A stretch of 64,000 nucleotides of DNA from Neocallimastix sp. 'constans' (Eukaryota), in NCBI GenBank assembly GCA_050613775.1, contig JBODTK010000010.1, positions 1,364,001 through 1,428,000 on the forward strand, in the 5' to 3' direction. Shown in pieces: positions 13,533 through 61,653 of this stretch. How positions within the stretch are numbered: position 1 is the first letter of the stretch; each line of letters opens with the position of its first letter. Made by a program: the position numbers and the translations under genes. The notes below the pieces were generated by a model. It saw only the letters and a program-made list of their open reading frames with translations, was not told where the DNA came from and did not search any database.

Positions 13533-14187
13533 TGTCTCGAGAAGGTTTCGTGTTTTTTGTCAAAGGGTGCTTTTATTGTAACAAATCTTAATGTTACTTA
13601 AGATTGTTATAAGGTTTTTTACACAAAAGGTTCTCGACACTAAAGTAATTCAAAATATGTTTTATTAAAATAAGTTTTTTTTATTAGTAAAAATATAAAT
13701 TATTATTTTATTAATTAATCATTGTAATATTTTAAATTACTTTAAAATTAATTAATAAAAGCACAAGTAAAAATATTTTATTATGAAATTTTACACCTAT
13801 TTATAGTTTTTCAGGAAAATTAATTATTTTAAGTTATCAGTTGTTATTAGTAATTATTAGAAATAAAAGAAAATTAAAGAAAATTAAAGAAAACAAGTTT
13901 TCTTTCTAGAAAATGAATCTTAGATAAAAAATGATAAAAAATATTAATAAAATAGATTTTTCTAGTTTTATCGGTTCAATTGTTTAACCGATAAACACTA
14001 GTAATTTCTTTAATATTCTAGTTATAATAAATAAAAAGTTATTAAAATTTGGAAAGAGTGGGTGTCGAACCCTAAGGGTTCAGCCCGATGGTTATGGTAA
14101 CTTACAATTGAACCATAGTTACTAATTTACTAGTTATGAGTTTCGTTACAATAAATAATAAAACAAATTATTTTAATAAAACAAATT

Positions 14188-14922
14188 TGTCGAAATTACA
14201 ACTGAATTAAATTTCAATTTCAATTAATTTCAATTAAAATTATTAAAAACAAAATAATTAATAAAAATTTATAATTCATTAATTATTCTTTAAATTTTAT
14301 TTATTTTATAATATTATAAGTTATTTGATCATCTTAGGACCAGCTTAGGCCTACTGATTCTAATGATATCATATTAAACTTAAATATTATTAATAAATAA
14401 AATATTTATTAACATGAATCATTTGGTCATGTCATCCTTGATTCATAAATTAATGTTTATGTATTAATTTATGTTATATTGATTTAATTAATTATTAATT
14501 ATTAATTACTATATTAAATATTTAAATTTAATATTATATTATATATATTAGCTAATATATTAGATTAAAAAATATAATTTATTTATATTAAACATATTCT
14601 TATACTAAATATTATTATTATCAACTTTATATTATTATTATCAATATTCTCAAACCTACAAAGTATAAAAAGAAAATTCAAATTTATCTTTTTGTCCTTT
14701 GTAAGGTTATAGTTAACCTATTATAATATAACTATATATTTTTATTAATAAATAAAAATTTTTATCATATCAAACCAATTATTAGTTTTAATTAAGTGTT
14801 AAATTAACAAATTTAACTTTATAACTCTTTTATTTTAGTAATTTACTTATATCTATATAGTTATATTATATAGATATATCAACCTGATTCCTCGTTAAAT
14901 TCAACCTGTTTACTTTTTAACA
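14188..14922 (+). mobile_element. Family-B solo LTR (735 bp), flanks swapped by inversion
   Basis: TGTCGAA...TTAACA; flanks AAATT and TACAA. Confidence 0.95.
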
Positions 14923-15755
14923 TACAACTTAACGACTAATTCATTAAGTTGAGAAAATAAAATAAAATAAATTTTTTTACCTTTAATGTAGAGTTTATTA
15001 TAAAATTAATTATAATAATAACACAAAATGTAAGAGAAGAATTGTTTGTATAAATTGATCTTAAAAATATGTTTTTGAATAAAATATTTTTATTAATTTA
15101 TTAAAGTTAAAAATATAAAAATGTTACTATTATAACTATGTTTTTTATAATAATAACTCTTGATTTCTCAAAGAGAACTCAAGAGCCTTATTTATATTTT
15201 TTTATGAAAATAAGGTTAAATAAGAAAGGGTTTTCTAATCTTAACAAATCTCTTATCTAGGAAAAGATTAGATAGAAAAACCTAGATAAGTTTTCGATCG
15301 ATATTCTATCCATATCGATCATCGCATTAATTAAGTAAAACCGATTACTTCTAAAAAGTAATTGGAAAAAATCTTAATTAACCGATTTTCCAATCTAATG
15401 ATCGAAAATAAAAGAATAAAATAATAAAAGATATTTCGATCATATAATTTATCCTTATATTAAAAATATAAAATTAAATAGTTAATAAAATACAGAATAC
15501 ATTATAAAATACAGAATACATTATAAAATACAGAATAAAATACAATACAAAATACATTAGTTACAGTAGAGAATTTAGCATATTGTAAATATATTATTTA
15601 AAATTAATTAAATAAATTTTGTTAAATTAATGAATATTTAAAATTAAATTAAATAAATTTAATAAATATTATATGTAATTAAATAAAGTTATAGTTATAA
15701 TAACTTAACTAAGAAAATATAATTATTTGCTAACAAATAATTATAGATTCTTACA
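14923..15755 (-). mobile_element. Solo LTR S-e, main part, inverted (3' end at 21505-21553)
   Basis: Near-identical to the intact S solo at 52445-53363. Confidence 0.9.
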
Positions 15756-17206
15756 TCATTGTAATAATTTAATTAAAAAATTATAATTAAATTATTAATC
15801 ATTAATATTAGCTCTAACTGCTAATATTAAAGGTTTAGAAAAGAATCATACTTACCTATGGTTCTTTCTAATTATCGAGTTTATTATAACGAATTATAAT
15901 AGACGAAACACTAAAATTGATAAGGAAAAGTTTTAATTATAAAATTTTGTTAAAAAGTAAACAGGTTGAATTTAACGAGGAATCAGGTTGATATATCTAT
16001 ATAATATAACTATATAGATATAAGTAAATTACTAAAATAAAAGAGTTATAAAGTTAAATTTGTTAATTTAACACTTAATTAAAACTAATAATTGGTTTGA
16101 TATGATAAAAATTTTTATTTATTAATAAAAATATATAGTTATATTATAATAGGTTAACTATAACCTTACAAATGACAAAAAGATAAATTTGAATTTTCTT
16201 TTTATACTTTGTAGGTTTGAGAATATTGATAATAATAATATAAAGTTGATAATAATAATATTTAGTATAAGAATATGTTTAATATAAATAAATTATATTT
16301 TTTAATCTAATATATTAGCTAATATATATAATATAATATTAAATTTAAATATTTAATATAGTAATTAATAATTAATAATTAATTAAATCAATATAACATA
16401 AATTAATACATAAACATTAATTTATGAATCAAGGATGACATGACCAAATGATTCATGTTAATAAATATTTTATTTATTAATAATATTTAAGTTTAATATG
16501 ATATCATTAGAATCAGTAGGCCTAAGCTGGTCCTAAGATGATCAAATAACTTACAATATTATAAAATAAATAAAATTTAAAGAATAATTAATGAATTATA
16601 AATTTTTATTAATTATTTTGTTTTTAATAATTTTAATTGAAATTAATTGAAATTGAAATTTAATTCAGTTGTAATTTCGACAACGCCCTTCCACAAAAAT
16701 CGGATTCCAGACGATTTTGTGTAACGTTACATAAAGAAATTATTATATTTATAAAATTGTATATTTTAAAAATTTTTTTTTTTTTTTTTTTTTTTTTTGA
16801 AGTAAAAAGGTCACATGAGTCCTTTAAAGAACACATTACAAGTGGCCATTTCATGGAAATTTCGAAATTGTCAAAATTTACTGAAATTAAAATTTTGTTA
16901 TAAAATTAAATATCGAGAAATATAATGGTGTGAATTTTATTAAAAATTTCGTTGAAAAAATGTAAAATTGAAATTTTGAAATTGAAATTGAAATTTCATC
17001 TTAATTTTATGCATTAAATTGAAAATTTTTAAATATAGTGAAAATTTATAATTTAATGAATATAATAATGTAAAAATAAATAAAGTATTATTAAATTTCG
17101 ATTTTTTAAAAATTTTTGAAATTTTGAAATGTAAAATTTTAAATTAACTAATTTAATTTTGAAATATTATTATTATTTAATATACTATTTATAGCTTAAG
17201 TATAAT

Positions 17207-17266
<60 letters not shown>

Positions 17267-17272
<6 letters not shown>

Positions 17273-18306
17273 ATAAGAAAGAGAAGTGAATTTTCTATTA
17301 TTCTTTAAATATTCTTGATATATTCTTTGATTCCTTGGATTATTTTCAACTTCATAAGAAGGCACCCAATTACTTGAACTTTTATATTTGTATCTAACTC
17401 TATATTCGTAGCAGTTTTTCTTGTAGTTTGTCCTAAATCCAGAAATTTCAATAATATCATTAATGGATTCATTGTGCGAACTTCTATTTAAAAACTTTTG
17501 CGGAGTTGGGACATAAGGTTCCAATTCAGAGATATGAAAGATTGGATGATGTTTTGGAAAAGGTGACTTTTTAAGATCAATTTTATAATTATTATTCTCT
17601 AAAACATCGATTACCTTGTAAGGTCCATATTTGCAAGGAGCGAGTTTAGAACAATCTTCAATATTTAAAGAAGGAGGTGCTTGAATCCAAACCAAGTCAC
17701 CTTCTTTTATTACAGGAGGTGGCATCCTTTTCTTATCCGCATAATTTTTATATAATTCTTTAGATCTTAATAAGACATCTTTAATATGATTAAAACTTGT
17801 ACTTACATTTTTAATAAATTTACTATTAGTATCAACTTGGGGTAGTAAGAAATATTCGTCCATAGATGGATGAAATCCATAGTTAATAAAGAAAGGTGTT
17901 TCTTTTGTAGATTCATTGACTGAATTATTATAAGCGAACTCTGCAAGATAGATCCAATTAATCCAATCGTCGTGATAATAAGATCTTGAATAAGCTCTTA
18001 AATACTGTTCAATAAAGGAGTTACATCTCTCAACTTGACCAACAGTCTCATGATGATCTGTTGTAGCTAATTTGGATTTAATATTAAGTAATTTCATGAA
18101 TTCTTTCCAAAGTGCACTTGTAAACTGAGGACCTCTATCTGTATACATATCATAAGGAAGGCCATGTAATTTATAAACATTATTCATAAATGCTTTGGCA
18201 GTTTGTTTTGCATCAGGAATTTGTTTGAAAGGTATTAAGTGAATCATTTTAGAGAAACGATCCACTACAACCATTATTACCGTATATCCCTTTGAATCCG
18301 GGAGGC
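17267..18306 (-). pseudogene. B1 integrase core and C-terminus with degenerate chromodomain-like tail
   Basis: VVDRFSK, TDRGPQF, GQVER, GPY. Near-identical to the end of 48926-50719. Confidence 0.9.
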
Positions 18307-19660
18307 TGAACGTAAATCTAATTTTGTAAAATACTTTGCTCCTTTAACCTTTTCAATAATTTCATTAATAAGAGGTATGGGGTACGAGTTTCTTATAGTA
18401 ACAGCGTTTAACTTCCTATAGTCTACGCATAACCGAAGTGTACCATCTTTTTTCTTTTGGAATAGAACTGGATAACCTGCAGGTGATTCAGATGGTCTAA
18501 TAAATCCTTTTTTTAGGTTTTCTTTTATATATTCTTTCAAAACTTTATTTTCCTCTTCGGTTAAGGGATAGATTGGACCATAGTGAAGGGAAGCGTCCTT
18601 CTCCAGCACTATTTTGCAGTCGGTTAAACGATGTGGGGGAAGTTTATCGGCTTCGGCTTTACTAAAAACAATAAATAGATCGCGATATTGAGGCGGAATA
18701 TCTTCAATATTTGGATCTTCATTGTCATTTTTATTAATTTCTTTATTTGATAAGAAGGAATATATTAAAAAATTGTAATTATAGTCATTGTTTAAATTAA
18801 AATTGTTTTTTAAATATTTATTTTGTTTTTTGAAATAATATTTATATTTATTAATAAAATAATGATTTTTATTAAAAAATTTTTTATAATTAAATTTATC
18901 ACAAAATTTTGAAAATTTATTAAGGTTAAGGTTATTAAGTTTTTTATTAAAAAATTTTTTATTATAATTAAACTTCTGATCAAATTTTTTTAAATTTTTT
19001 GAAAAATTTTTATAATTAAATTTTTTTATTGATTTATAAAAAAGTAAATAATTTTTTAAAATTTTATTTTTCATCGACTGTAGATATAAATTGTTTTTGC
19101 AATATTTATTAGGATTTTTGTTATTTTTTTTTGAAAAATAATAATTTAAGTAAGAATATAATATATTCTTATCATAATTATAGTGAATTTTGAATTTTCG
19201 CATGAATTGATTACCAAAAAGTAGATCAGTTGGTATGCAATTTGTTATTAGAAATTTTTCATTGTAATTTTTAAAATAAAATTTTTTATTCTTTTGTATT
19301 TTTATTTGAAATTTTAGCCAAACGTACTGATCTATCTTAGTAGTAGAACCAGATATACCTTTGACTGAAATTTTATTTTTTAAATTATAAATTTTTAAAT
19401 TTAGTTTTTGAACTAAATTTTTTGTAATAAAATTACAAAATGATCCAGAATCTAGCATAGATTCAGATGTAATTTTTTGGTTATTTTTAATTTTTAATTT
19501 ATTATTATTAATTGGTAGTCTTGTTGGAATGTAGCAATGGAATAAAAGAAAAGTTGAAGGTAGTTTTTGGGTTGTGATGTTATCAAATGAAGGAAAGTTA
19601 TAATAAATTGTTTTTACATTTTTTGATGAATTGGACTCCGAGTGAAGTCCTTCATTTAGT
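18277..19660 (-). pseudogene. pol: B1 pol 5' part: protease and RT N-terminus, cut by a deletion
   Basis: MLDSGS..DLLFG protease; [18 protein letters not shown], then a jump into integrase sequence. Confidence 0.9.
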
Positions 19661-20735
19661 TTTTTGAATTATTATTATTTGTACTATTATTACTGTTATT
19701 ATTAATTTTATTAAAGTTATTATTATTATGGACTTTATTATAATTATTATTATAATATTTGTTATAATTGTTATTATTATTATATTTATTATTATTGTTG
19801 TTGTTGTTATTGTGGACATTAGAAGGCTTTTTCTTTAAATTTTTATTACCATTAGATTTTAATTGACCTTTAGATTTCAAGGAATTTTCGTAAAGAATAC
19901 ATCTAGTATAAATAGTACTAAGATCAGAAGGAAATTCATCCATTTTTTCTATTTCTTCCTGGAACCTTGGGTGCAATCCATTATAAAAGAATAAAACTAA
20001 AGCTTCTTCATTCCAATTCAAACATGTTGTAAGGGTTCGAAATTCATCAATATAATCATTAATTTTCCCAAATGTGTGAGAAATTTTTGCGAGTTGGATC
20101 ATGGCTAATTTCTTACTGGCAACATTATTAAAAGCTTTCCTTAATTCTTTAATCAATTCTTCTAATGTTGCTGGACTTCTATCTTTATATTTGGCATAAT
20201 ACCAATTACGAGCACCATCTCTTAAGCGTGACTTAACATAATTAATTTTTACATCCATAGTAGATTCACAGTTAGGATAAGTCTTAAAAGTATCTTCACA
20301 GAGCTGACAAAAGAGATCGGTTTCCTTAGTATCCCCAGTGAAAAATCCAGGTTCTGGGACTTCTTGAAGTGTATTGGGAATAGTATTCCTCATTATTACA
20401 TCATTGTCTGCCTCTCTTCTTGTTGATATAGAAGCGTTATCATCTTGATTTTGAGAAGCATTAACATTAGGAATAAAATCGAATTTCTGATTTAAAATGC
20501 TGGTAATAGAAGAAAGTTGTTTTATGATATTCTTGTTATCCCTATTTAAAGTAAAAAGTTTCTTTTGAAGATCTTCATTATATTTATTAAAATCTTCTCT
20601 TGATAAGAATGTAACTTCTGCATCTTTTGCCAGTTCAGAGACAGTAATCTGAGCGTCTGTTCTTAGCTTATTTACTTCCGACATAGGAGCAAAGTCAGGA
20701 TAGGAGTTTGCCCACACGTTATTATAAAGGGACAT
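19656..20735 (-). CDS. gag: Family-B Gag (no CCHC knuckle seen)
   Basis: Retrotransposon gag motifs LRDGARNWY and FYNGLHP; lies directly after the PBS. Confidence 0.9.
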
Positions 20736-21504
20736 ATCAAGGTGATTCTCTTTTCTAAGGTAAGGTTATTGTTAAAAAGTAAACAGGTTGAATTTAACGA
20801 GGAATCAGGTTGATATATCTATATAATATAACTATATAGATATAAGTAAATTACTAAAATAAAAGAGTTATAAAGTTAAATTTGTTAATTTAACACTTAA
20901 TTAAAACTAATAATTGGTTTGATATGATAAAAATTTTTATTTATTAATAAAAATATATAGTTATATTATAATAGGTTAACTATAACCTTACAAAGGACAA
21001 AAAGATAAATTTGAATTTTCTTTTTATACTTTGTAGGTTTGAGAATATTGATAATAATAATATAAAGTTGATAATAATAATATTTAGTATAAGAATATGT
21101 TTAATATAAATAAATTATATTTTTTAATCTAATATATTAGCTAATATATATAATATAATATTAAATTTAAATATTTAATATAGTAATTAATAATTAATAA
21201 TTAATTAAATCAATATAACATAAATTAATACATAAACATTAATTTATGAATCAAGGATGACATGACCAAATGATTCATGTTAATAAATATTTTATTTATT
21301 AATAATATTTAAGTTTAATATGATATCATTAGAATCAGTAGGCCTAAGCTGGTCCTAAGATGATCAAATAACTTATAATATTATAAAATAAATAAAATTT
21401 AAAGAATAATTAATGAATTATAAATTTTTATTAATTATTTTGTTTTTAATAATTTTAATTGAAATTAATTGAAATTGAAATTTAATTCAGTTGTAATTTC
21501 GACA

Positions 21505-21553
21505 TTGTAGTTAATAATTCTATTTTGAGTTAGTTCTTAATAGAATTATTACA
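21505..21553 (+). mobile_element. 3' terminal 49 bp of S-e
   Basis: Reverse complement of 52445-52493; ends ATTACA. Confidence 0.9.
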
Positions 21554-21569
21554 AATCATTTTTTAAGCA

Positions 21570-21662
21570 GCTCGTGTAGCCTAGAGGTTTAAGGCGTCGT
21601 GCTTATAAGGGAGTACCTCTTATGCAACGCGAAGATCGCGGGTTCGACCCCCGCCATGAGCA
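21570..21662 (+). tRNA. tRNA-Ile(TAT) with 19-nt intron (21608-21626)
   Basis: Acceptor GCTCGTG/CATGAGC, D stem GCCT/AGGC, anticodon stem TCGTG/CGCGA with CT-TAT-A, T arm GCGGG-TTCGACC-CCCGC, downstream T runs. Confidence 0.97.
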
Positions 21663-22499: not shown

Positions 22500-22530
<31 letters not shown>

Positions 22531-23235: not shown

Positions 23236-23327
23236 ATATTGTCTATATTATAGTTAATTATACTATCTATACTCTCTATGTTTATATATTTTATTATTAT
23301 ATCTAATATAATCAGTTCTTATATATA

Positions 23328-29492: not shown

Positions 29493-29634
29493 TGTAAAAA
29501 AAATAATTACTTGATAAAAAAAAGAAAAATAAATGAAAGATTATATATAAAAAAAAAGTATTCTATTATGATAATTATATTGTAATTATAATTTTCTTAT
29601 TATTTTCATATTAATTTATTTGATCTTGCTTTCC

Positions 29635-29651
29635 CCCCACGTTGGGCGCCA
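29635..29651 (-). promoter_or_regulatory. PBS, tRNA-Lys(CTT)-like
   Basis: TGGCGCCCAACGTGGGG, 5 nt inside the LTR; matches the classical tRNA-Lys1,2 PBS. Confidence 0.85.
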
Positions 29652-35775: not shown

Positions 35776-35848
35776 AAGAAAACATGATGGATCATCTTTA
35801 AAATTATTAATATTGTAACGAATCCTAAAGTTAGTAAAATTGTTGTTG

Positions 35849-35903
35849 TAGTCTGGTGGTAATACACCATGACAATGAAGCCGAACTTCTAAGGTTCGAC
35901 TCA
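35849..35903 (+). promoter_or_regulatory. tRNA-like A box (35849-35859) and B box (35893-35903) in the C2 LTR; equivalents at 14115-14061 and 8723-8669 (-) in C1
   Basis: TAGTCTGGTGG..GGTTCGACTC in C2 and TGGTTCAATGG..GGTTCGACACC in C1, both at LTR positions 36 and 80. Confidence 0.7.
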
Positions 35904-36386
35904 CACCCTTTCCCAATCTAAATTATTTTTAGTTAATTAATTAAATTATTGTAGAAAGTTCTAGAGTTTCTTTGGTTAATATTATATAACTAAATGAAAC
36001 TAGAAAGTTCTATTTTAATAATTATTTTATCATTTTTCTATAAGATTCATTTTCTAGAAAGAAAACTTAATTTTTTCGAACTTTCGTTAATCTTAACTTT
36101 TTCCGAAACTGTTTTTCCGAAAAAGTATAAATAAGCGTGAATTTCTCAATAAAAAATAATTTTTCTTTGTGCTTTTATTAACTAGTTAAAAGTAATTCGA
36201 AATATTACAATAACTAATTAATAATAAAAAAATAATAATAAATTTTATATTTTAATAAAAAATATTAATAAAACAAATTTTTTAAGAAAACGAATTACTT
36301 ATTAGTGTAGACCTATTGGGTGTAAATCGTTACAATAAAAGCACCCAAAGAAAAGAAGCCCAGTACCCCTGCACTAAGGACTAGCC

Positions 36387-36568: not shown

Positions 36569-37524
36569 GATTTATTATAAAGCGAATAAAATAAAATAAA
36601 TTAAATTACAGATACTATTCTAAACAACATCTCGCATTAAATAGTACTCTACTCTCCGAATAAATATTTATTTTAATTATAATTAATTTTAAATTTCTTA
36701 CGTTATATATAAAGGCTTGCCTGGCTCCCAAAGCGACGATAGTTGAGCATCGTTACCATAATACTTTGTCGTTCAGATTCTGTTGATAACTGGGGAAGAT
36801 AATTTGTTGTACTTTTTCATGCTAACAAAGGTTAGATACAAACAAAAATACAATTACATTACTTCCTTCTACCATTAATTGGTACTAACAATCGACTTAA
36901 TCTGCGTTTATCGATAAAGAGCTAAAGAGACTTACCACGCAAGGCTTTAACAAATTATATATTTCCTGGCTCAATACTATATGATTTGGTTTATAACAAT
37001 TCAATAAGAAATAAAGATTAATCAAATAAAATAAATATTTAATTACTCCTATATCTTCCAAAATAATTATATATTACTTTATCACTATAAAAAAAAAAAA
37101 AATCTTAATCACGGGATATATCAAAAAAAATCAACTCTGAAAATATCCAATCTCAAATCACTCTCAAAATCAATCTGAAATTTTATATCAACTTAATGCA
37201 ATAAATTTTAAATCTCAATAATCTTTTCTAAATTATTTCCAGCTCTCTATAACTATTAAATTACTATAATAATATATATACAAATCTACTATACCTAATT
37301 TAGTATATTATATAAATTTAAAATTTCAATACCAAACCTTATTTAATTCTAAATAATTCCAGTGGGATCAATTATTACTATTTATATATTCAAATCCTCC
37401 TTAATCAAAATTATATTATAATTCAATTCCTCTCTATTATACTGAAAAAATCGTTCTTAAATATATCTTATTCCAACTTATTCAATAATCAACTATAAAA
37501 ATAACAGTGAAACTTATATTCAAA

Positions 37525-40500
37525 ATGGAAGAAAACAATTTTGCCAACGCAACCTATAAGGATGGTTTTGCCGGAGATAGACGCTACCTTAAGGGATTCT
37601 TAGCTAAAATGAATTTAATCTTCATGATTCACCCTGATCGATTCAATAATGATGAAACAAAAGTAATCTACGTTATTTCTAGGTTATATGGTAATGCTAT
37701 GAATTGGGCAGCATCACTTATGGAGAATCAGGACCCTTGCTTGTTAAATTACGAAGCCTTCGTTGAAAGAATGAAATCTGTATATGGGAGTTATGACTCA
37801 ACATTCATTGCAAATCAGAAACTCAGAACTATAAGACAAAAACGGTTAGGCGACATTAGAAGCTATATACTCGAATTCAACTCTTATGCCGACGAGTCAT
37901 CTTGGAACGAAGAAGCGAAAATGGACGCATTTCTTGTTGGTTTAAATGATCAAATCGCTACAAGAATTCTGGAAATGTTCCCTGGTCCAAGATCTCTTAC
38001 TGCTATGCAAACTATAGCTTCCAGAATAGATGGCCGTCTATCAGCCCATAGGCAATTTACAAATAATCAAAATCGATCAAACAATAACCTTAATAACAAC
38101 AATTCTAATAAGAAAAGATGGAATTTTTATAAGAAAGGTTCGAATTCTAAACATTATGGACCCCTATCCGACGAAGAGAAAGAAAGAAGAAAAAGAGAAA
38201 ACCTCTGTTTATATTGTGGATCCTCAAATCATACTCTAGGCAATTGTCCACTCAAAAATAAGAAAAAATCACCCTCAAGCACTTCTCATATTACTAATCC
38301 TGAACCAAGGGCCAAAGAAAGACCAAGAATCTCAGATCAACAAAATTTGAGTCTTCCTATATTTGAGTTCACTCTCAATGTTTTAAAATCATCAGTCAAA
38401 ACTAAGATTCTTCTAGATTCAGGTTCTCAACTTAATCTTATGGATGTCTACTTTGCCAATGAAAATAACATTCCTTATTCATCCGAAACCATTCATCCTG
38501 AAGTAGGAAGAATTGGTGGTACTCAGAAAATTCTCGGGGAAACTTTGCCAATTTCGATCAGCTATAAAAATCACAATTGTAAAACTAAGTTTTATGTCGT
38601 CGATTTACCTTCTTATTGTGCTCTTCTTGGCGCTGAATGGCTCTCTACTCATAATCCAACAATAGATTTCTCTTCTAAAACACTTCATTTTAATTCAAAA
38701 TATTGCATTAATAATTGTCTCGTTATTCCAAATACTTATACAACCTTCATTCCTTCATGCAATTTAATAAACGAAATTCCAAAAAATTCCGATAATTCGG
38801 ACAGCCAAAAAATTGAAGAAATTAACAATTCAGAAGAAAAAATATCTAATGAAATAATTAATAATACTAAGAACCAACACAAGGAACCCAACGAAGATAA
38901 TAAAAATGTTATCTATCTTTTACCAACTAAATTATCCTCATTTATGGATGTTTTTAGTGAAGTCGCTGCGAACATGCTACCCCCTCATCGACAATATGAT
39001 TGTGAAATTAATTTGAAACCAAATACTAATTTATATTACGGCCCAATATATCCATTAACAGAAAAGGAATTAGTTGCCTTCAAGAAATATATTGACGAAA
39101 TGCTTGCTAAAGGTTTTATAAGAAAATCAAATTCTCCTGCCGGCGCTCCAATTTTCTTCGTACTGAAAAAGAACGGTGAACTCAGACTTGTTGTGGATTA
39201 CCGTCGGCTCAATGAATGTACTTATCGTAACTCCTTTCCCATTCCACTTATCAATTTTATGTTAGAAAGACTTCGTAAGGGTAAAATATTCTCTAAAATT
39301 GATTTACGCCAAGCCTTCAATCTTATAAGAATCAAGAAGGGAGATGAGTATAAAACTGCATTTACTTGTGTATTTGGACATTTTGAATACCTAGTAATGC
39401 CCTTTGGACTCAAGAATGCTCCTGCAGTCTTCCAACACTTTATTAATGATGTATTTGAAGACATCATAGGAAAATTTGTTTTCTGCTATATTGATGATAT
39501 CATCATCTTTTCTCCAGACTTAGAAACACATTACGAACACCTTACTGAAGTACTTACTAGACTAAGAAAAGCAGGATTATACGCTAAACTCGAAAAGTGC
39601 GAATTTTGTGTACCTTTTCTAGACTTTCTCGGACACAGAATCTCTGCAAATGGTATCTACATGGATCCTAAGAAGGTTTCTTCTATCCTAGAATGGCCAG
39701 CCCCAACTAATACTAAGGAACTCCAATCATTTTTAGGTCTTGCTAACTATTACAGACGCTTCATCACAGGATTCGCTAAGTTATCCCATCCACTTAACAT
39801 TTTACTCAGAAAAAATACAAAATTCATTTGGACAACCGAATCTCAAAAGGCTTTCGATGAAATTAAGTCAAAATTTTCTTCAGCCCCTGTACTTGCTTAT
39901 CCAAACCGTGAAATCCCTTTTATGGTTGAAACCGATAGTAGTAATTTTGCTATTGGTGCTATTCTTTCACAAACTTCGACTAAAGACAACAAAATTCACC
40001 CTGTCGCATTTTTCTCTAGAGCTCTCAACCATGCCGAAAGAAATTATCCCATATACGATAAGGAACTTCTTGCCATTGTTTCGGCCTTAGAACACTGGAG
40101 ACACTTATTAAAAGGCACAGATATTCCCTTCACCATTTTCTCCGATCATCGAAACTTACTTTACCAAAAGAAACCTGAAAAAATGTCACAAAGACTTGTC
40201 CGTTGGTCAATATTCCTATCCGAATTCAATTTTAAAATTGTCTATCGTTCTGGATCATCTAATGGTAAACCTGACGCACTTTCCAGAAGACCTGATTATA
40301 TTCCTTCCTCTGACGACTCCTCTTCCGAAACTCCATTTTTCGTACTTCGCCCTGAAAATTTCGTTGTTACTGTCTTAACTAATTCTGATCTCTCTAATAA
40401 AATCCTTAATGAATGTAAAGATGATATTTTTTATCATAATATCTGCGAATATTTAGAAAACAAAAAACTTCCAATTCCTCATCCCAACATTGATAAATTT

Positions 40501-41808
40501 TCTCTAAGTAATAGTTTCTTACTCTTCGATAGCAAATTATACGTTCCTCCTAAGTGTCGTTCTTTCGTTTTGAATATTTGTCATGACTCTCCTTCCTCTG
40601 GACACTTTGGAATTAAGAAAACCCTCAATCTTCTGAACCGTGACTTCTGGTGGCCTTCTTCCAATCCTGATACTAAGGATTATGTCCGCTCTTGCGAAAT
40701 ATGTTGTCGCTCAAAAGTTTCCAAACACAAACCTTACGGCTTGTTAAACCCGCTTGACATTCCTAATCGCCCTTGGACTTCCATCTCAATGGACTTCATA
40801 ACAGACTTACCCAAATCAAACGGCTATACATGTATTTTGGTGGTTATCGATCGTCTTTCCAAGATGTGTCATTTAATTCCGTTCCCAAACGTTCCTTCTG
40901 CTTCAGACACAGCTTCCGCCTTCCTTAACCAAATTTTTCGCTACCATGGACTTCCTACTGAAATCCTATCGGATAGAGGAACACAATTTACATCTAAATT
41001 TTGGACAGCTGTTTGTAAAGGACTAAATATTTCTCTTAAATTTTCTTCTCCATTTCATCACCAAACAAATGGTTTAACGGAGAGGGTGAACTCCGTTATC
41101 GAACAATACTTAAGATGCTATACAAATTTCAAAGGATCTAATTGGAATGACTTCCTTTACTTAGCAGAATTTAGCTATAATAACACCATTCAAGAATCCA
41201 CTAATCATTCACCTTTCTTCGCTAATTATGGATTCAATCCCAGACATTCTCCCGAAGTCCCCACAAATGTTGAAGTACCTAGAGCAGAAGAACTTGTTAA
41301 AAACCTTGCAGAATTAACCAAGGAATTAAAAGAAAATATTAAAATAGCAATTGAAAAACAAGAGAAATATGCCAATAAGCATCGTATGGAACCACCTGAA
41401 TTCAAGAAAAATGACAAAGTTTGGATCAATAGTTCTCTAATTATAAAGAATGGTAACAAAAAGCTTAAACCAAGAAAATTAGGACCTTTTAAAATCCTAA
41501 GCAAAATATCTCCTGTTTCGTATAAACTTGACTTGCCAAAAAATCTTAGGATTCATCCAATCATGCATGTCTCTGACCTTGAACCGTACTTTGAAGATAA
41601 GTTTGGAAGAAACCAAGAACCACCACCAATTATCATTAACAACGAAGAAGAGTACGAAGTTGAACAAATATTAGACAAACGAACTCATTATGGGAAAATC
41701 CAATACTTGATAAAATGGAAAGGATATCCGCTTTCAGAAGCTTCTTGGGAACCTGAGGAAAATCTTAATTCCCCCAAACTCTTGAAAAAATTCAATAAAA
41801 ATAATTAA
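37525..41808 (+). CDS. Intact Gag-Pol: Gag-CCHC, PR, RT, RNase H, IN, chromodomain
   Basis: CLYCGSSNHTLGNC, LLDSGS, YIDD, TDSS, SDHRNL, HHCC/DDE, GPF, chromodomain. The ATG at 37525 aligns with the C1 start. Confidence 0.96.
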   Translation: MEENNFANATYKDGFAGDRRYLKGFLAKMNLIFMIHPDRFNNDETKVIYVISRLYGNAMNWAASLMENQDPCLLNYEAFVERMKSVYGSYDSTFIANQKLRTIRQKRLGDIRSYILEFNSYADESSWNEEAKMDAFLVGLNDQIATRILEMFPGPRSLTAMQTIASRIDGRLSAHRQFTNNQNRSNNNLNNNNSNKKRWNFYKKGSNSKHYGPLSDEEKERRKRENLCLYCGSSNHTLGNCPLKNKKKSPSSTSHITNPEPRAKERPRISDQQNLSLPIFEFTLNVLKSSVKTKILLDSGSQLNLMDVYFANENNIPYSSETIHPEVGRIGGTQKILGETLPISISYKNHNCKTKFYVVDLPSYCALLGAEWLSTHNPTIDFSSKTLHFNSKYCINNCLVIPNTYTTFIPSCNLINEIPKNSDNSDSQKIEEINNSEEKISNEIINNTKNQHKEPNEDNKNVIYLLPTKLSSFMDVFSEVAANMLPPHRQYDCEINLKPNTNLYYGPIYPLTEKELVAFKKYIDEMLAKGFIRKSNSPAGAPIFFVLKKNGELRLVVDYRRLNECTYRNSFPIPLINFMLERLRKGKIFSKIDLRQAFNLIRIKKGDEYKTAFTCVFGHFEYLVMPFGLKNAPAVFQHFINDVFEDIIGKFVFCYIDDIIIFSPDLETHYEHLTEVLTRLRKAGLYAKLEKCEFCVPFLDFLGHRISANGIYMDPKKVSSILEWPAPTNTKELQSFLGLANYYRRFITGFAKLSHPLNILLRKNTKFIWTTESQKAFDEIKSKFSSAPVLAYPNREIPFMVETDSSNFAIGAILSQTSTKDNKIHPVAFFSRALNHAERNYPIYDKELLAIVSALEHWRHLLKGTDIPFTIFSDHRNLLYQKKPEKMSQRLVRWSIFLSEFNFKIVYRSGSSNGKPDALSRRPDYIPSSDDSSSETPFFVLRPENFVVTVLTNSDLSNKILNECKDDIFYHNICEYLENKKLPIPHPNIDKFSLSNSFLLFDSKLYVPPKCRSFVLNICHDSPSSGHFGIKKTLNLLNRDFWWPSSNPDTKDYVRSCEICCRSKVSKHKPYGLLNPLDIPNRPWTSISMDFITDLPKSNGYTCILVVIDRLSKMCHLIPFPNVPSASDTASAFLNQIFRYHGLPTEILSDRGTQFTSKFWTAVCKGLNISLKFSSPFHHQTNGLTERVNSVIEQYLRCYTNFKGSNWNDFLYLAEFSYNNTIQESTNHSPFFANYGFNPRHSPEVPTNVEVPRAEELVKNLAELTKELKENIKIAIEKQEKYANKHRMEPPEFKKNDKVWINSSLIIKNGNKKLKPRKLGPFKILSKISPVSYKLDLPKNLRIHPIMHVSDLEPYFEDKFGRNQEPPPIIINNEEEYEVEQILDKRTHYGKIQYLIKWKGYPLSEASWEPEENLNSPKLLKKFNKNN

Positions 41809-46047: not shown

Positions 46048-46442
46048 ATTTATTATTTTTTTTTTTTATAATGTATATTATATATTATTATTTATTTTTA
46101 TTATAAATATATAATTCTCTGATTTTCTTGGCTATTTGTTTTAAATTTTCAAGACTGTGAATTATATCTACTCTCTTGACTTACTCAATTTTCGATTCTA
46201 TTCACCCTTTATTCTCTTTAAAACAAATCCAGTACTCTCTCAGTATTAATATATTTTTATAAATGAATTTATATTTTTTAAAATATTTATAAAATAACCA
46301 CAATTTATTATAAATTTTTTTTTTTTTTTTTTTTTTTATAAAATTTTTTTTTTTTTATATTTTTTTTTTATAAATTTTTTTTTATAATTATTATTTATTT
46401 AATTTTTATACTATATTTTCACGATATTTTCCTGCTTGCTTC

Positions 46443-46459
46443 GCCCGGATTCTCCACCA
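46443..46459 (-). promoter_or_regulatory. PBS, tRNA-Ala-like
   Basis: TGGTGGAGAATCCGGGC next to the 5' LTR; complementary to a ..TTCTCCACCA 3' end. Confidence 0.75.
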
Positions 46460-50822: not shown

Positions 50823-52303
50823 TGTTGAAATTACAACTGAATTAAATTTTAATTTCAATTAATTTCAATTAAAATTATTAATGTTGAAATTACACTGAAT
50901 TAAATTTCAATTTCAATTAATTTCAATTAAAATTATTAATGTTGAAATTACAACTGAATTAAATTTCAATTTCAATTAATTTCAATTAAAATTATTAAAA
51001 ACAAAATAATTAATAAAAATTTATAATTCATTAATTATTCTTTAAATTTTATTTTTTTTATAATATTATAAGTTATTTGATCATCTTAGGACCAGCTTAG
51101 GCCTACTGATTCTAATGATATCATATTAAACTTAAATATTATTAATAAATAAAATATTTATTAACATGAATCATTTGGTCATGTCATCCTTGATTCATAA
51201 ATTAATGTTTATGTATTAATTTATGTTATATTGATTTAATTAATTATTAATTATTAATTACTATATTAAATATTTAAATTTAATATTATATTATATATAT
51301 TAGCTAATATATTAGATTAAAAAATATAATTTATTTATATTAAACATATTCTTATACTAAATATTATTATTATCAACTTTATATTATTATTATCAATATT
51401 CTCAAACCTACAAAGTATAAAAAGAAAATTCAAATTTATCTTTTTGTTCTTTGTAAGGTTATAGTTAACCTATTATAATATAACTATATATTTATATTAA
51501 TAAATAAAAATTTTTATCATATCAAACCAATTATTAGTTTTAATTAAGTGTTAAATTAACAAATTTAACTTTATAACTCTTTTATTTTAGTAATTTACTT
51601 ATATCTATATAGTTATATTATATAGATATATCAACCTGATTCCTCGTTAAATTCAACCCGTTTACTTTTTAACAATAACCTTACCTTAGAAAAGAGAATC
51701 ACCTTGATATGTCCCTTTATAATACTGGCAAAAGATGCAGAAGTTACATTCTTATCAAGAGAAGATTTTAATAAATATAATGAAGATCTTCAAAAGAAAC
51801 TTTTTACTTTAAATAGGGATAACAAGAATATCATAAAACAACTTTCTTCTATTACCAGCATTTTAAATCAGAAATTCGATTTTATTCCTAATGTTAATGC
51901 TTCTCAAAATCAAGATGATAACGCTTCTATATCAACAAGAAGAGAGGCAGACAATGATGTAATAATGAGGAATACTATTCCCAATACACTTCAAGAAGTC
52001 CCAGAACCTGGATTTTTCACTGGGGATACTAAGGAAACCGATCTCTTTTGTCAGCTCTGTGAAGATACTATTAAGACTTATCCTAACTGTGAATCTACTA
52101 TGAATGTAAAAATTAATTATGTTAAGTCACGCTTAAGAGATGGTGCTCGTAATTGGTATTATGCCAAATATAAAGATAGAAGTCCAGCAACATTAGAAGA
52201 ATTGATTAAAGAATTAAGGAAAGCTTTTAATAATGTTGCCAGTAAAAAATTAGCCATGATCCAACTCGCAAAAATTTCTCACACATTTGGGAAAATTAAT
52301 GAA
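50823..52303 (+). mobile_element. Nested B3: two 58-59-bp LTR-start duplicates, full LTR 50940-51674, PBS, truncated gag
   Basis: TGTTGAAATTAC at 50823, 50882 and 50940. The gag ATG at 51709 is followed by an 86-bp deletion relative to B1. Confidence 0.88.
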
Positions 52304-53363: not shown

Positions 53364-54695
53364 CAAGATTTTCTGTAACAGATACATGGTAACTTCAAGC
53401 CTATCCAATGATAGTTCTTTGGTTACGTAACGTATCTCTAAACAGCTAGCAATTTCGGCTAATCAAATAAAATCTTTTGTTACTTTCGTACATTAAATTT
53501 TATTATTTTATAAATAATTATATAGTTAAATATTTATTTAAATATATTTTATTTAGTGATTAGTAAACTAAGTTAAATTAAATTATTTACCAATCATAAT
53601 ATTATTGACATGTATAAATAATAATTGAACTTGTAACTGTAACGCACTAGCGTTACTATTAACGTAAATTGTTATTATAAATATTAATATTGATAAATAA
53701 AAATATAATTATTAAATAAAAAATATTACTCAGTGTAAGCCCAGTAACTGATAACAAATAGAGTTATAAAGTGCTGCGCTATACTCTAGTGTAAAAAGAA
53801 ATAATAATTATAGAATTAATTAATTTAGTGTTTATTATTAACAACTCGAATAGAGAGGTGTTAAGTTATCTTAGCCTTTAGATTTAATTATTATTCGTTA
53901 TTTTAGTTAATAATAAACTTACCTTTTACAATAGTAACGCTTTATAACTAAATAGCCGATAATAATTAAATAAAAATTTAAACGCTAAGTAATAATTTAA
54001 TAAGATAGAATAGTTAGTTTTATAAAATAAAAATTAATATTTAAACAATAAATCATAGTTTACTTATTTTCTTTGTTTACTTTTTAATTGTTTAACTTAG
54101 AAAATTTTTGATACAAAATTTACGCCACAATACGTAGCGGAAGAAGCCACAAAAATTTTAATCAAAAAAAAAAAAAAAAAAAAAATTTTTCGGCTTCAAA
54201 ATAAAATTTTGATCAAAAATCTAAAAATTTAAATTTTTTTAAAATTTCGTATATCCGAAATTTAATTTATTAATAATTTAATTATAAATCATTATTTAAT
54301 TTAAAAATTTTAAATTTTTGGTAATACCGATTTTTAATTAATAAAAATTTTGTACTTTACCAAATAAAATTCGCTTTTGCTTAATAGGTAGTCATTTTTT
54401 ATACAAATTTATATTTGTAGTGACTCGGGAAGCGAAAGAAAAATTTTTAAAATAATTATTTATTTAAATTATTAATTATTATACATTTAATTTTTAAAAA
54501 AAAAATTTATTTTTTTATTTTTTATTTTTATTTATTTTATATTATTATTTAAAAAAAAAAAAAAAAAAAAAAAATTAAGTGGACGATTATATCAACTAAA
54601 TAAATTTAAGTAAGTGAATAAATTATAATCTTTTAAATAAACTAAAAGTGAGTGGATATATTTATAATTACTAGATAAATTATTAAGAAAAGTAA

Positions 54696-56461: not shown

Positions 56462-59400
56462 CAAAATTACTATAAAGACTCACGTACCAGCAGTAATAAT
56501 CCAATTCCCAAGACAGCACTTCTAATGCAAGCTGGGTCTGAGTACGAAGAATTTGTGCCTGAGGCCAAGATAAGTAATCTTCGTACCAAAGAGGGGCTCC
56601 AAGATTTAAATGTGCTGTACGATACTGGATCACAGATCAACATGATCCATCCGCAGTTAGCCAAGGAGATGGGACTCAAGACAGAAGACCGTCCCTTAAC
56701 GTTCACTACTGCCGCTGGTAAAGTGCTGATATCACAGGTTACGGAAGAGTTCAAGATTAAGATTAAGCTGGTCGAAGAGCGTACTGGTAAAGTCAAATGG
56801 TATGACTTTAATACAAGATGCAGGCTAGCCGAGAACGATCATTCTGGGATCAAGATTCATGGATAGACATTTAATCTATAGAAAGATTGACGTCCATGAT
56901 CAACAGCCTAAGGTATATAAAATAGATGGCGAAAGACCAGGGCTACCAGATGTAGACTCACCAGAAGAGTGCGCAGGTGAAAGTATCTACATGGTGCAAC
57001 TCCCAGAAGAAAGAGAAGAAGCTGTGCAAAAGGAGATTCAACCTACAGCGAGAATTACCAAAATTATAAATCAGGTTATTGATAACCAGAAGTTGAAGGA
57101 CACGGTGTATGAATTAACGAGGCAATATTACCGTGATAGAGGAATTGAGTATACGATGGATTACTACGATTATTTAGTGGATTACGATAAATGGGCAGAT
57201 TGGTTCAAGGTACAAAAGACTAAAAATCTAAAGGAGAGTGAAATCAATAAGAACCCTACGGAAAGTAGTGCACAAAAAGATAGCCAGACAAAAGATCATC
57301 TAGCCATGATCACGCAAGAGGATTCGGTGGCGGAAACAATCAGAAAAGTGGGACTTGAGAAACTATTGTCAATAGGCGAAATTATAGATAAGTATTATGG
57401 AGACTTAACGGAAGCATTCAATGAAGAAATCGCTGAGACATTACCAGAGCACAGGCCGTATGATTGCAAAATAGAACTAGAGCCTGATGCACCACTTTAT
57501 AAAGGAGCTATCTACCCAACGAGTCCTAAAGAAGAGAAAGCACTTAAAGAATATATTGATGAAAATTTAGCTAAGGGGTTTATAAGAAGGTCAGAATCTC
57601 CGGCGGGTTACCCTGTATTGTTCGTGCCGAAGAAATCAGGTGAGCTACGACTTTGCATGGATTATCGCAAACTGAACCAATGGACTAAACGCAACGCCTA
57701 TCCGATCCCAAGAATTAGTGCAGTGTTCGAAGCTATGAAAGGAGCAGTTGTGTTCTCCAAGTTCGACCTAAAATCTGCCTATAACTTGGTACGAATTCGA
57801 GAAGGTGATGAGTACAAGACAGCCTTCAACACCAAGTTTGGACACTTTGAACATTTGGTAATGCCTTTTGGGCTAACCAATGCACCAGCAGTGTTCCAAA
57901 GCTTCGTGAATGATGTCTTCAGCGAGGATATCGGGAAGTACTGTCAAGTCTACCTAGATGACATCGTCGTATATTCCAAAACTTTGGAGGAACATGTAGA
58001 GCATGTTCGAACGATTTTAAAGAAGCTGATACAACATAAACTCGTAGCTAAGATGTCCAAATGTGAGCTACATAAGTTAAAGATCTCATTTTTAGGCCAT
58101 GTGGTCAGCAAGGATGGTGTAGAGACTGACCCAGAAAAGATTAAGGCCGTGGCAGAATGGCCACAACCAGAAAATATCAAGCAGATGCAAAGCTTCTTAG
58201 GCTTTTGCAATTATTACAGGAATTTTATTAAGAATTTCTCTGAAATAGCCAAACCGTTATTTAAAATGACCTCAAAGAAAGAAAAATTTGAATGGAGCGA
58301 AGAAGGATTGGCCGCGTTTCACAAATTAAAGGAAATGCTTACCTCTCCGCCAGTACTAGCTTATCCTGACCACGAGAAACAGTTCTTCGTTGAATGTGAT
58401 GCTAGTAATTACGCGATAGGAGGTGTGCTGTCACAGAAAGGAGACGATGGTACCCTTCATCCTATATATTATTATTCTAAGACACTTAGTAAGGCTGAAG
58501 TAAATTATTCGATTACAAAGAAAGAACTATTAGCCATTAAGACTGCTTTTACAGAATGGCGACACTTGCTTCAAGGTGCGAAGCATAAGATTATTGTTTA
58601 TAGTGACCACAGAAATCTGTTGTTCGCTACCAAACCACAATTACTAACTCCTAGGCAAATTAGATGGCAAGAACTATTCGCCACATACTGGTTTGAAATA
58701 GTTTACAGACCTGGGAAGAAAAATGGTATGGCTGACGCCCTCTCAAGAGTTGAAACAGAGAAAACTGAGGGTAAAGAATTTGATAAAGATAGTCTATTAA
58801 AACCCGATCAATTGGTAGGATTTGATGACGTAGATGGAGAAGCTAGTTATCTAGCCTTAGCTACCAATTTCGTGGATGATATCAAGCAGGCCTACCGACA
58901 GGACAAAATGGCCCAAGAGATTATGAAAGATCTAGCAGAAGATGCCAGAAATAATTATAACAAGAAGCATTGGCTAGAAGTAGATGGCCTTCTGGTTAGA
59001 AAGGAAAACCCTGAACAAATTTACGTGCCCACAACGTTCAGGAAAACAATTATTCAATTAAACCATGACTCGGAGTACGCAGGACACTTAGGAATTGATA
59101 AGACTTCGGACCTAGTATCTAGGAATTTCTACTGGCCGAAGATGAGGAAGGATATATCAGGCTACGTGAAAGCTTGTAGAACCTGCGCTACTAAGAAGGA
59201 TGATTGCCATAAAGAATATGGTACTGCGGTAAGAGTTCCGGTCGCAGAATTACCCTGGCAAGAGGTACAATTGGATTTTATAACTGATCTGCCAGTGAAG
59301 AGTAGAGTAAGGACCAATAGTGGTTATGTTTGGGAAACGAAAAGAGCAGGTTGTATCTTAGTATGCTGCGATAAATTAACCAAGATGATACACCTGATAG

Positions 59401-60362
59401 GATTTAAACATGTGCCCAACGCTAACGAGACTGCTGACGCATTCCTAAAGGAGATTCACAGGTTGCATGGATTCCCTAAGGTGGTTACAACTGATAGAGG
59501 AGTCCAGTTCACCAGTCAGGTATGGAAGGAGCTACTAGAGTTCTTCGGGACCGAAGTAAACCATGCTACCACTAGTCACCACGAGACAGTAGGCCAAGTG
59601 GAAAGGAACAATGCCTACGTAGAGACTTATTTACGGTGCTTTGTGGGAACCTACGATGATGAAAGTTGGATGGACTACTTGTTCTTAGCAGAGTTCTGTT
59701 ATAACAACGCAATCCACGCTTCTACCCAACAATCTCCTTTCCTCACCTTATATAACTACCAGGTACACAACTCCCCTAAGACAGCCGATTTAGTACACTC
59801 GTTAGGCGAAGCCAAAATGATCGATAGCTTTGCTCACAACTTGGGAAACCTAAAGCACATCCTAGAAATCGCCCAAACAAGATACCTGGATAATATGGAA
59901 AGGACCCGTACAGATAATTACCCTAGGTACAGGTTGTTAGATAAAGTATGGCTAAAGAAACCTGAAAATTATGACGCGTTGCCATTCTACAAACTTACAA
60001 CAAGAAAATTCGGACCATTCAAGGTAGTTGGTGTCGACGAAGAAAAGAAGAATTATAGATTAGATATAAGTCGTTCACCTTTCCCAAATATGTACCCAGT
60101 GTTCCATGTGAGTGAATTGGAACCATTCTACAACTTACCTAAAACATTAGTGCCGGCTCCTGCAGGAAACCAAAAGATAATTCATATCCTTGGATCAAGG
60201 AAACACCAAGGACTTTATCAATACCTGGTTGCGTACCAGAATGATAAACAAGAGTGGGTCAACGCCGACGTGATCGACGACAATCCTCACTACGCAGAAT
60301 TGCTGGAGGATTACCAAGATTTTAGCTATAGCCAGTTCATCGCTAGCGTCGTCAACCATTAG
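56462..60362 (+). pseudogene. pol: D pol (PR, RT, RNase H, IN, degenerate chromodomain-like tail), frameshift at ~56835
   Basis: LYDTGS, then IILGS in a shifted frame; YLDD, CDAS, SDHRNL, HHCC, TDRGVQF, GPF. Confidence 0.9.
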
Positions 60363-61653
60363 TAGCTTGCTCCTTGGGAGAGGCCTTGTAACAGATACAT
60401 GGTAACTTCAAGCCTATCCAATGATAGTTCTTTGGTTATGTAACGTATCTCTAAACAGCTAGCAATTTCGGCTAATCAAATAAAATCTTTTGTTACTTTC
60501 GTACATTAAATTTTATTATTTTATAAATAATTATATAGTTAAATATTTATTTAAATATATTTTATTTAGTGATTAGTAAACTAAGTTAAATTAAATTATT
60601 TACCAATCATAATATTATTGACATGTATAAATAATAATTGAACTTGTAACTGTAACGCACTAGCGTTACTATTAACGTAAATTGTTATTATAAATATTAA
60701 TATTGATAAATAAAAATATAATTATTAAATAAAAAATATTACTCAGTGTAAGCCTAGTAACTGATAACGAATAGAGTTATAAAGTACTGCGCTATACTCT
60801 AGTGTAATAAGAAATAATAATTATAGAATTAATTAATTTAGTGTTTATTATTAACAACTCGAATAGAGAGGTGTTAAGTTATCTTAGCCTTTAGTGTTGA
60901 AATTATAACTGAATTGAAATCTCAATTTCAGTTATTTACATTTCAATAATTAAAAATATTATTTATTTAATTATAAATAATATATATAAATAATATATAT
61001 ATTTAAATAATTAATAATTAATATAAATTCTTGTTTAATATTTAAAGGGTTATCTTAGGCCTAATAATTCTGAGAATATTAATAAATAAGGTTTATATTA
61101 ATAATTAATTTCAATGATACATTTGACGTCACGTGTATTTTATTTATATTATGTTTTTATATATGTTTACAACATATCTATATTAAATTCAATTATTCAA
61201 ATTAATTATATAATTAAATTTATCCTTATATTTTATTAGTATTTATATTACTATATTATTACTATCTTATAATTAAATATTATTATTATGTAACTTACAA
61301 AGTATAAAAGAAAGATGTAAAAATCTATCTTTTATGTTCTTTGTAAGGTTATTGTAAAATTACCTTAATAGTAATATATTATAGATATTTTATTATTAAA
61401 TAAAATCAATAAATTTAAAATCAAATTAATTTGATAATTCTAATTATCAAAGTTTATTATAAATAAATTTTCATTAAACTAAACATTTAAATATTTATTA
61501 TTATTATTATATATCTATATAGTATATTACTATATAGACATATCGACTTAGTGAATATTTTTATTAAAACATATTATTTTATTTAAATTTAAATTATAAA
61601 TTATATCAAAATCTTAACAATAACCTTACCCTAGTTTTAGTTGCTACCTTGAT

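What the first reader, a model, noticed from the sequence alone, without database searches (positions are those of the whole stretch)
13567..61629. Tf1/sushi-type self-priming with covarying sequences in three families
Seen: none has a TGG PBS. The 10-13 nt at the 5' LTR boundary instead complement an LTR segment ~30-40 nt after the TATA box. Family C: ATAAAAGCAC (36335; 13576) vs GTGCTTTTATT (36169; 13764). Family B: ATAACCTTAC (20769; 51675; 61620) vs GTAAGGTTAT (20991; 61343). Family D: ATAGTAACGCT (53931) vs AGCGTTACTATT (53649). Known: S. pombe Tf1 primes with the first 11 nt of its own mRNA. Inference: the same mechanism, with family-specific primers.
Basis: partly seen in the sequence, partly recalled or inferred. 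Interest (0 to 1): 0.75.

Follow-up and report, generated by a model that had tools for sequence, protein, structure and literature searches.

The report
Self-priming retrotransposons in gut fungi
Several jumping-gene families in what is likely an anaerobic gut fungus carry, where a host tRNA normally lands, 10-11 bases that match a stretch of their own terminal repeat, so they likely start copying themselves with the front end of their own RNA, a trick already known from fission yeast Tf1 and its relatives.

Summary
Observation confirmed. At six 5'-LTR junctions (five LTR families, three primer sequences) the 10-11 bases after the terminal CA are the exact complement of a block 166-282 nt upstream in the same LTR, 36-43 nt after a TATA box (0-3 of 2000 shuffles). 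Two TGG-type elements in the window lack it. The closest named proteins are from anaerobic gut fungi. In relatives of family B, 17 of 17 loci with enough upstream DNA keep the match, with one compensatory change versus the window, and a U5-leader helix covaries. An RT tree puts the families in a fungal/vertebrate clade apart from plant elements, though Tf1 and sushi-ichi were not in it. The start site is untested: no usable reads. Verdict: likely Tf1/sushi-type self-priming, a new member of a known kind. One lead: pairing ends at ten bases and the next PBS base is C in 23 of 24 junctions, which may face the RNA's cap G. This scan noted self-priming signatures before in copia and BEL/Pao elements of other genomes, not in this family.

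The parts
13577..14150 (-). C1 5' LTR (574 bp; 572 of 574 identical to the 3' LTR at 8185-8758; TSD TTTAT)
13755..13764 (-). C1 predicted self-primer GTGCTTTTAT, 41 nt after a TATAAAT start
13567..13576 (-). C1 PBS ATAAAAGCAC, directly after the LTR, followed by C
9065..11977 (-). C1 ORF: gag-PR-IN-chromodomain, RT and RNase H deleted in frame
35814..36334 (+). C2 5' LTR (521 bp; 3' LTR 42202-42719; TSD AATAT)
36169..36178 (+). C2 predicted self-primer GTGCTTTTAT, 43 nt after a TATAAAT start (36126)
36335..36344 (+). C2 PBS ATAAAAGCAC, followed by C
37489..41808 (+). C2 single 1439-aa ORF: gag-PR-RT(YIDD)-RNase H-IN-chromodomain
20770..21504 (-). B 5' LTR (735 bp; 733 of 735 identical to the 3' LTR at 15948-16682)
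20982..20991 (-). B predicted self-primer GTAAGGTTAT, 37 nt after a TATAAAA start
20760..20769 (-). B PBS ATAACCTTAC, followed by C
20802..20819 (-). B U5 arm of the predicted U5-leader helix (10 bp, 2x2 loop, 6 bp)
20731..20748 (-). B leader arm of the predicted U5-leader helix; covers the gag ATG
17267..20765 (-). B internal region: gag, PR and IN ORFs; RT, RNase H and the IN zinc finger are missing
50940..51674 (+). second B 5' LTR; predicted primer 51453-51462, PBS 51675-51684, truncated gag behind it
60895..61619 (+). B2 5' LTR (725 bp), inserted in the D 3' LTR
61343..61352 (+). B2 predicted self-primer GTAAGGTTAT, 40 nt after a TATAAAA start
61620..61629 (+). B2 PBS ATAACCTTAC, followed by C; gag ORF to 62724
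53374..53930 (+). D 5' LTR (557 bp; 3' LTR 60387-60894, cut by B2)
53649..53659 (+). D predicted self-primer AGCGTTACTAT (11 nt), 36 nt after a TATAAAT start
53931..53941 (+). D PBS ATAGTAACGCT, followed by T
56829..60362 (+). D pol ORF: RT(YLDD)-RNase H-IN with a degenerate chromodomain-like tail
29634..29651 (-). control: TGG-type PBS of element A (LTRs about 29657-30202 and 21713-22258); no self-complement
46442..46459 (-). control: TGG-type PBS of element E (5' LTR about 46460-47270); no self-complement

Best explanation
These are Ty3/gypsy LTR retrotransposons, likely of an anaerobic gut fungus, whose primer binding site is the exact complement of a 10-11 base block in their own LTR, and they likely prime reverse transcription with the 5' end of their own RNA, as Tf1 does. 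Shown: the complement, its position at the LTR end, the TATA spacing, the compensatory change and the covarying U5-leader stem. Inferred: transcription starts at the first base of the block (a purine after pyrimidines); that 5' end loops back 156-399 nt and pairs with the PBS inside a loop closed by the U5-leader helix; the element's RNase H cuts after base 10 or 11; RT extends the released piece across U5 and R. Also inferred: plus-strand synthesis copies the attached primer back into the PBS, so the two blocks would change together. C1 and B copies that lack RT keep the signals and would need RT in trans.
For: Complement at offset 0 in 6 of 6 non-TGG junctions, 0-3 of 2000 shuffles; 0 of 2 TGG junctions. 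Chance phage matches to two junction 15-mers had the complement upstream in 0 of 118 and 0 of 60 loci. Of 27 metagenome loci related to B gag, 23 show the junction; 17 of 17 with at least 302 nt upstream carry the exact 10-nt complement 176-409 nt away. Position 6 of the primer is A:U in those 17 and G:C in window B and B2, one change on the gag tree. Pairing never extends 5' of the block in 18 of 18 elements. Strict TATA at -45..-34 in 16 of 18 against 5% background; C at -4 in 15 of 15 B-type LTRs. U5-leader helix: 93.4% of 304 cells paired, 14 of 16 pairs with two-sided changes, 0 of 500 shuffles as high, slid controls 28-48%. RT-RNase H tree: C, B-type and D form a gut-fungal clade (SH-aLRT 98) inside a clade with fish, amphibian and fungal elements (97); A and E lie outside. 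Family B's PBS starts with ATAAC, the first five bases of the Tf1 PBS (PMC11042837, section 8 read). Self-priming is reported as common in the Tf1/sushi group (10.1101/2022.12.06.519325 and PMC6317226, passages).
Against: No start site was measured: three raw-read runs matched only spuriously (96-97% of laid reads run on unlike the stretch) and the one holder is contigs. In whole-leader folding the primer:PBS duplex forms only for B2 (about 1.0) and C2 (about 0.35) and not for C1, B or D; the program cannot model the pseudoknot, and the duplexes are weak (-10.3 to -13.9 kcal/mol). The U5-leader helix is not specific: tRNA-type A and E have one too. The third pretzel duplex is clear only in C1. 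The junction search in relatives looked for the B-type PBS, so it could not find other primers; 4 of 27 loci had no junction and 6 of 23 had too little upstream DNA. No C or D relative with both blocks was found. Two loci inside the same gut-fungal clade (L038, L040) show CA-NN-TGG. Tf1 and sushi-ichi were not in the tree, and support is SH-aLRT only.
Confidence: 0.87

Rival explanations
1. Transcription starts upstream of the block, and the primer is cut out of the inside of the transcript by two cuts, or the pairing only organises the leader RNA while priming uses something else.
For: No start site measured. The conserved TTCTTT just upstream could be transcribed. Tf2 uses alternative start sites (PMC5341516, passages).
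Against: Pairing stops at the block's first base in 18 of 18 elements and the TATA spacing is fixed to that base. No TGG or other primer site is present.
Confidence: 0.07
2. A host tRNA fragment or other host RNA is the primer, and the LTR block is a mimic that keeps the PBS covered until then.
For: Half-tRNA priming exists in copia lineages (PMC6317226, passages). All three primers end in TAT, and the C primer shares 6 bases with the window's tRNA next to its TAT loop. Host tRNAs could not be screened.
Against: The window tRNA shares only 6, 5 and 4 bases with the three primers. Three primers plus a compensatory variant each match their own LTR exactly, which one fixed tRNA could not follow.
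Confidence: 0.05
3. The matches are chance inverted repeats in very AT-rich DNA.
For: The window is 24% GC. A loose scan for CA plus a 10-mer with an upstream complement gave 5 unrelated hits in the window besides the 6 junctions and one mirror hit.
Against: 0-3 of 2000 shuffles per element; 17 of 17 related loci; 0 of 178 chance phage loci.
Confidence: 0.01

Closest known systems
Tf1 and Tf2 of Schizosaccharomyces pombe
   Same: No tRNA PBS; PBS directly after the LTR's CA and complementary to a block in the LTR; PBS begins ATA (ATAAC in family B, as in Tf1: PMC11042837); Ty3/gypsy order; 5-bp TSD; C has one ORF with a chromodomain.
   Different: Primer is 10 nt in B and C (11 with the terminal A) against 11 nt in Tf1 (PMC7175516, passage); sequences differ; B and D have separate gag and pol ORFs and only a degenerate chromodomain; mechanism is proven in Tf1, predicted here.
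Tf1/sushi group (Fungi/Vertebrates chromoviruses, including Tj1, Tosmo1-3, Tcry1, Tcn1)
   Same: Self-priming is predicted in these from the same sequence signature, including the pretzel duplexes (10.1101/2022.12.06.519325, PMC4600332, PMC6317226, passages). The RT tree places C, B and D with fish, amphibian and fungal elements.
   Different: Host is likely Neocallimastigomycota; I found no paper describing priming there. The elements form their own gut-fungal clade, in which two loci show a TGG junction of unknown type.
Dictyostelid Skipper and DGLT-A
   Same: AT-rich host, clusters of Ty3/gypsy elements, loss of the TGG PBS in Skipper.
   Different: Skipper has a polypyrimidine tract and no LTR complement, DGLT-A has TGG (PMC5006619, passages); the closest proteins here are gut-fungal.

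Membership tests
Tf1/sushi group | Ty3/gypsy LTR element (TG...CA LTRs, PPT, TSD, PR-RT-RH-IN order) | tested here: met
   best solved RT relative is Ty3
Tf1/sushi group | RT groups with the fungi/vertebrate chromoviruses | tested here: met
   SH-aLRT 99 and 97 with fish, amphibian, newt RTL1-like and fungal rows; by proxy only, since Tf1 and sushi-ichi were not available; B is represented by related loci because the window's B copies lack RT
Tf1/sushi group | Chromodomain at the end of integrase | tested here: inconclusive
   met in C1 and C2 (E about 1e-16); D scores E 0.12 and B has no Pfam hit, B aligns weakly to the C2 chromodomain (29%, E 0.008)
Tf1/sushi group | PBS lacks TGG and is complementary to a block of at least 10 nt in the 5' LTR | tested here: met
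   6 of 6 junctions; 17 of 17 testable related loci
Tf1/sushi group | The complementary block is the 5' end of the transcript | tested here: inconclusive
   no usable raw reads; only indirect support from TATA spacing and the sharp 5' edge
Tf1/sushi group | Pretzel: duplex between the sequence after the PBS and the LTR | tested here: met
   also present in the tRNA-type controls, so not diagnostic
Tf1/sushi group | Pretzel: duplex between the sequence just before the PBS and the LTR | tested here: inconclusive
   long hairpin in C1, 6 bp in B, weak or absent in most others
Tf1/sushi group | RNase H cleaves the RNA duplex to release the primer | not testable with these tools
   RNase H domains are present in C2 and D; cleavage needs an experiment
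tRNA-primed Ty3/gypsy | TGG PBS within a few bases of the 5' LTR | tested here: not met
   absent in B, B2, C1, C2, D; present in A and E
Dictyostelid Skipper | Polypyrimidine tract in place of a PBS, no LTR complement | tested here: not met

The most novel reading that the evidence does not exclude
In families B and C the primer is the cap plus ten bases: the C that follows the 10-nt PBS pairs with, or is copied by RT from, the m7G cap of the element's own RNA, so the PBS is rewritten from the capped 5' end in every cycle. The base after the match is C in 21 of 21 non-redundant B-type junctions and in C1 and C2, the next base is free (C10 A5 T4 G2), and the base before the block in the LTR is never G. 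Against: D has T there; other leader positions are also invariant; an 11th pair can be made instead with the LTR's terminal A (14 of 15 B-type). That RTs copy a cap G as C is recalled; my search did not surface a paper on it.
Probability: 0.28. Interest if true: 0.55.

Novelty: new member of a known kind. Interest (0 to 1): 0.3.

Why it matters
It extends Tf1-type self-priming to the anaerobic gut fungi, an early-diverging lineage, which fits an old origin of the mechanism in fungal chromoviruses. It supplies a natural set of sequences that fixes the primer's edges and the U5-leader helix by covariation, and it gives a simple test of whether the RNA cap takes part in priming. The mechanism itself is known and expected in this clade, so the finding is not surprising.

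Tried and rejected
A dictyostelid host was considered from base composition and rejected: closest named proteins are from Orpsp1_1 and Anaeromyces robustus. No whole genome is held, so host tRNAs and other copies could not be screened. C-family relatives: 8 viral and 76 genome-contig loci; 44 were scanned and none gave a credible primer-PBS pair, mostly because LTRs were missing. B gag in viral contigs gave one weak hit. Two 15-mer scans of viral contigs gave chance matches, used as negative controls. No tRNA gene in 31 related loci, so tRNA-gene targeting is not supported beyond the one case in the window. The bootstrapped tree did not finish; the quick mixture-model tree is reported (42 of 63 rows, 53 of 63, near-duplicates dropped; the row named after Tf2, P0255, was too short). 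The primary Tf1 papers were not held, so the Tf1 mechanism is cited from reviews and later papers; the base after the Tf1 PBS could not be looked up. REXdb additional files 1 and 3 of PMC6317226 were too large to read and may hold comparable self-primer sequences.

Full report
Setting. The window is 24% GC and is mostly a nested cluster of Ty3/gypsy LTR retrotransposons. The closest named proteins are gene models of Orpsp1_1 (74% to C2 RT-RNase H, 69% to B gag, 73-88% to D) and Anaeromyces robustus; most unnamed close hits are from metagenomes. The host is therefore likely an anaerobic gut fungus; this is inferred, and no genome is held.

Anatomy. LTR ends, PPTs and target duplications were read directly. 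C2 (35814-42719, +) has one 1439-aa ORF with all domains and a chromodomain. C1 (14150-8185, -) has RT and RNase H deleted in frame. B (21504-15948, -) also lacks RT; six B LTRs lie in the window. B2 starts at 60895 inside the 3' LTR of D (53374-60894). Two more elements, A and E, have TGG junctions.

Observation. All quoted motifs are present. At six junctions the bases right after the terminal CA are the reverse complement of a block 166-282 nt upstream of the LTR end: 10 nt in C1, C2, B, B, B2 and 11 nt in D. Shuffled LTRs reached that length in 0-3 of 2000 trials; A and E gave 6 and 4 nt, at chance level. A TATA box starts 36-43 nt before each block.

Relatives. An alignment of 49 B-type gag proteins fetched 27 metagenome loci. 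A search for the B-type junction found it in 23; three of the other four lack the DNA upstream of gag and one is a weak partial match. All 17 loci with at least 302 nt upstream carry an exact 10-nt complement 176-409 nt away; the 6 with 263 nt or less do not show it, and for the two longest of these the sister locus has the block further away than the contig reaches. These relatives read GTAAGATTAT against ATAATCTTAC, where window B and B2 read GTAAGGTTAT against ATAACCTTAC: a two-sided change, counted once on the gag tree. Over 13 non-redundant loci and five window families, a strict TATA starts at -45..-34 in 16 of 18 (background 5%), pairing never runs 5' of the block, and B-type LTRs keep C at -4 and T at -2 in 15 of 15. 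Chance phage matches to the junction words had the complement in 0 of 178 loci.

RNA structure. With the PBS held open, most elements fold a U5-leader helix, in B and C typically with a small internal loop rich in C; the cognate leader ranks first among 24 in 13 of 22 non-TGG elements and in the top three in 19 of 22. On a 19-row alignment, 14 of 16 pairs show two-sided changes and 93.4% of cells pair, above all 500 shuffles and all slid controls; the structure was taken from window B, and one row (L026) is misaligned. This matches one duplex of the Tf1 'pretzel' (10.1101/2022.12.06.519325, passages), but A and E have such a helix too (ranks 2 and 1). The duplex on the U5 side is clear only in C1. 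In unconstrained folding the primer duplex appears for B2 and partly for C2 and not for C1, B or D; the full structure is a pseudoknot that the program cannot form.

Phylogeny. On RT-RNase H, C, D and B-type loci form a clade (SH-aLRT 96 and 98) within a clade (99 and 97) holding fish, amphibian, newt RTL1-like, Rhizoctonia, Ustilago, Berkeleyomyces and Planoprotostelium rows; plant and algal rows lie outside it, and A and E group far away. This is the expected place of the Tf1/sushi group, by proxy. C has a clear chromodomain; B and D have at most a degenerate one.

Mechanism. [quoted passage not shown] The same steps are inferred here. Copying of the attached primer would also explain why the blocks stay perfectly matched, so the match reflects templating as well as selection; this is my inference. 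The cut site is open: T11 pairs with the LTR's last A in 14 of 15 B-type elements and in C, yet window B, present in six near-identical LTRs, has a mismatch there, which favours a 10-nt primer.

The extra C. The base after the 10-nt PBS is C in 21 of 21 B-type junctions and in C1 and C2, while the next base varies; that position was not part of my search pattern. An RNA-library contig of B changes the two following bases and keeps the C. It would face the cap G if transcription starts at the block. D has T at the matching place, and other leader bases are also invariant, so this stays a lead at about 0.28.

What was not shown. The start site: raw reads did not come from this element and contigs cannot show a start. 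Host tRNAs, apart from the one in the window. Covariation in C and D. Two clade members show CA-NN-TGG and could be tRNA-primed or self-primed.

Literature. Passages seen: PMC5006619, PMC6317226 (plus supplement file 5), PMC2864245, PMC4600332, PMC7175516, PMC5341516, PMC3601003, 10.1101/2022.12.06.519325; one section of PMC11042837. They report self-priming as common in Tf1/sushi elements (83% of 1500 Tcn1 elements predicted). Two searches listed no paper on priming in anaerobic-fungal elements (search listings only). Earlier notes of this scan describe such signatures in copia and BEL/Pao elements, none in this family.

Verdict. Real, well supported and expected: new members of the Tf1/sushi self-priming kind in a host group where I found no prior description. 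Interest 0.3.

Noticed in passing
window 14183-21509: Target-site flanks are swapped among three B LTRs (14187 +, 15948 -, 20770 -): AAATT and TACAA pair up only if the segment between the outer two LTRs is flipped, which suggests an inversion between a solo LTR and a 5' LTR, or an assembly error.
   Followed up: partly
window 21570-21662: An intron-containing tRNA gene (anticodon TAT read by eye) has a B LTR 65 bp upstream and the 3' LTR of element A about 50 bp downstream. No tRNA gene was found in 31 related loci, most of which lack flanks.
   Followed up: partly
window 8185-14150 and 15948-21504: Two elements with near-identical LTR pairs (572/574, 733/735) lack RT; in C1 the RT-RNase H deletion is in frame and leaves gag-PR-IN-chromodomain in one ORF.
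   Followed up: partly
L038:37-60 and L040:110-135: Members of the same gut-fungal RT clade show a CA-NN-TGG junction that differs between two close relatives; the LTR upstream is missing, so tRNA priming and self-priming cannot be told apart.
   Followed up: partly
window 17270-17509 and 60120-60359: B and D integrases end in a degenerate chromodomain-like tail; the D- and B-like relatives listed mostly lack the Pfam chromodomain.
   Followed up: partly
window 20731-20748: The gag ATG of B-type elements lies inside the 3' arm of the U5-leader helix in most aligned loci, which could couple translation to priming or packaging.
   Followed up: no
window 36390-36560 and 13375-13526: The long leaders of C2 and C1 hold unrelated short tandem repeats (9-nt and 15-nt units) behind the PBS.
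   Followed up: no
window 35041-36334 and 60895: Nesting: a solo B LTR (TSD TTCTT) and C2 sit 38 bp apart inside element E; B2 sits inside the D 3' LTR.
   Followed up: no
L037-L112: The 76 loci from prokaryote genome assemblies carry matches to a Ty3/gypsy polyprotein, most on short contigs and likely eukaryotic contamination.
   Followed up: no
window 580-1602: Short ORFs with a weak Ty3 capsid hit and a zinc-knuckle-like motif suggest a further degraded element at the left end.
   Followed up: no
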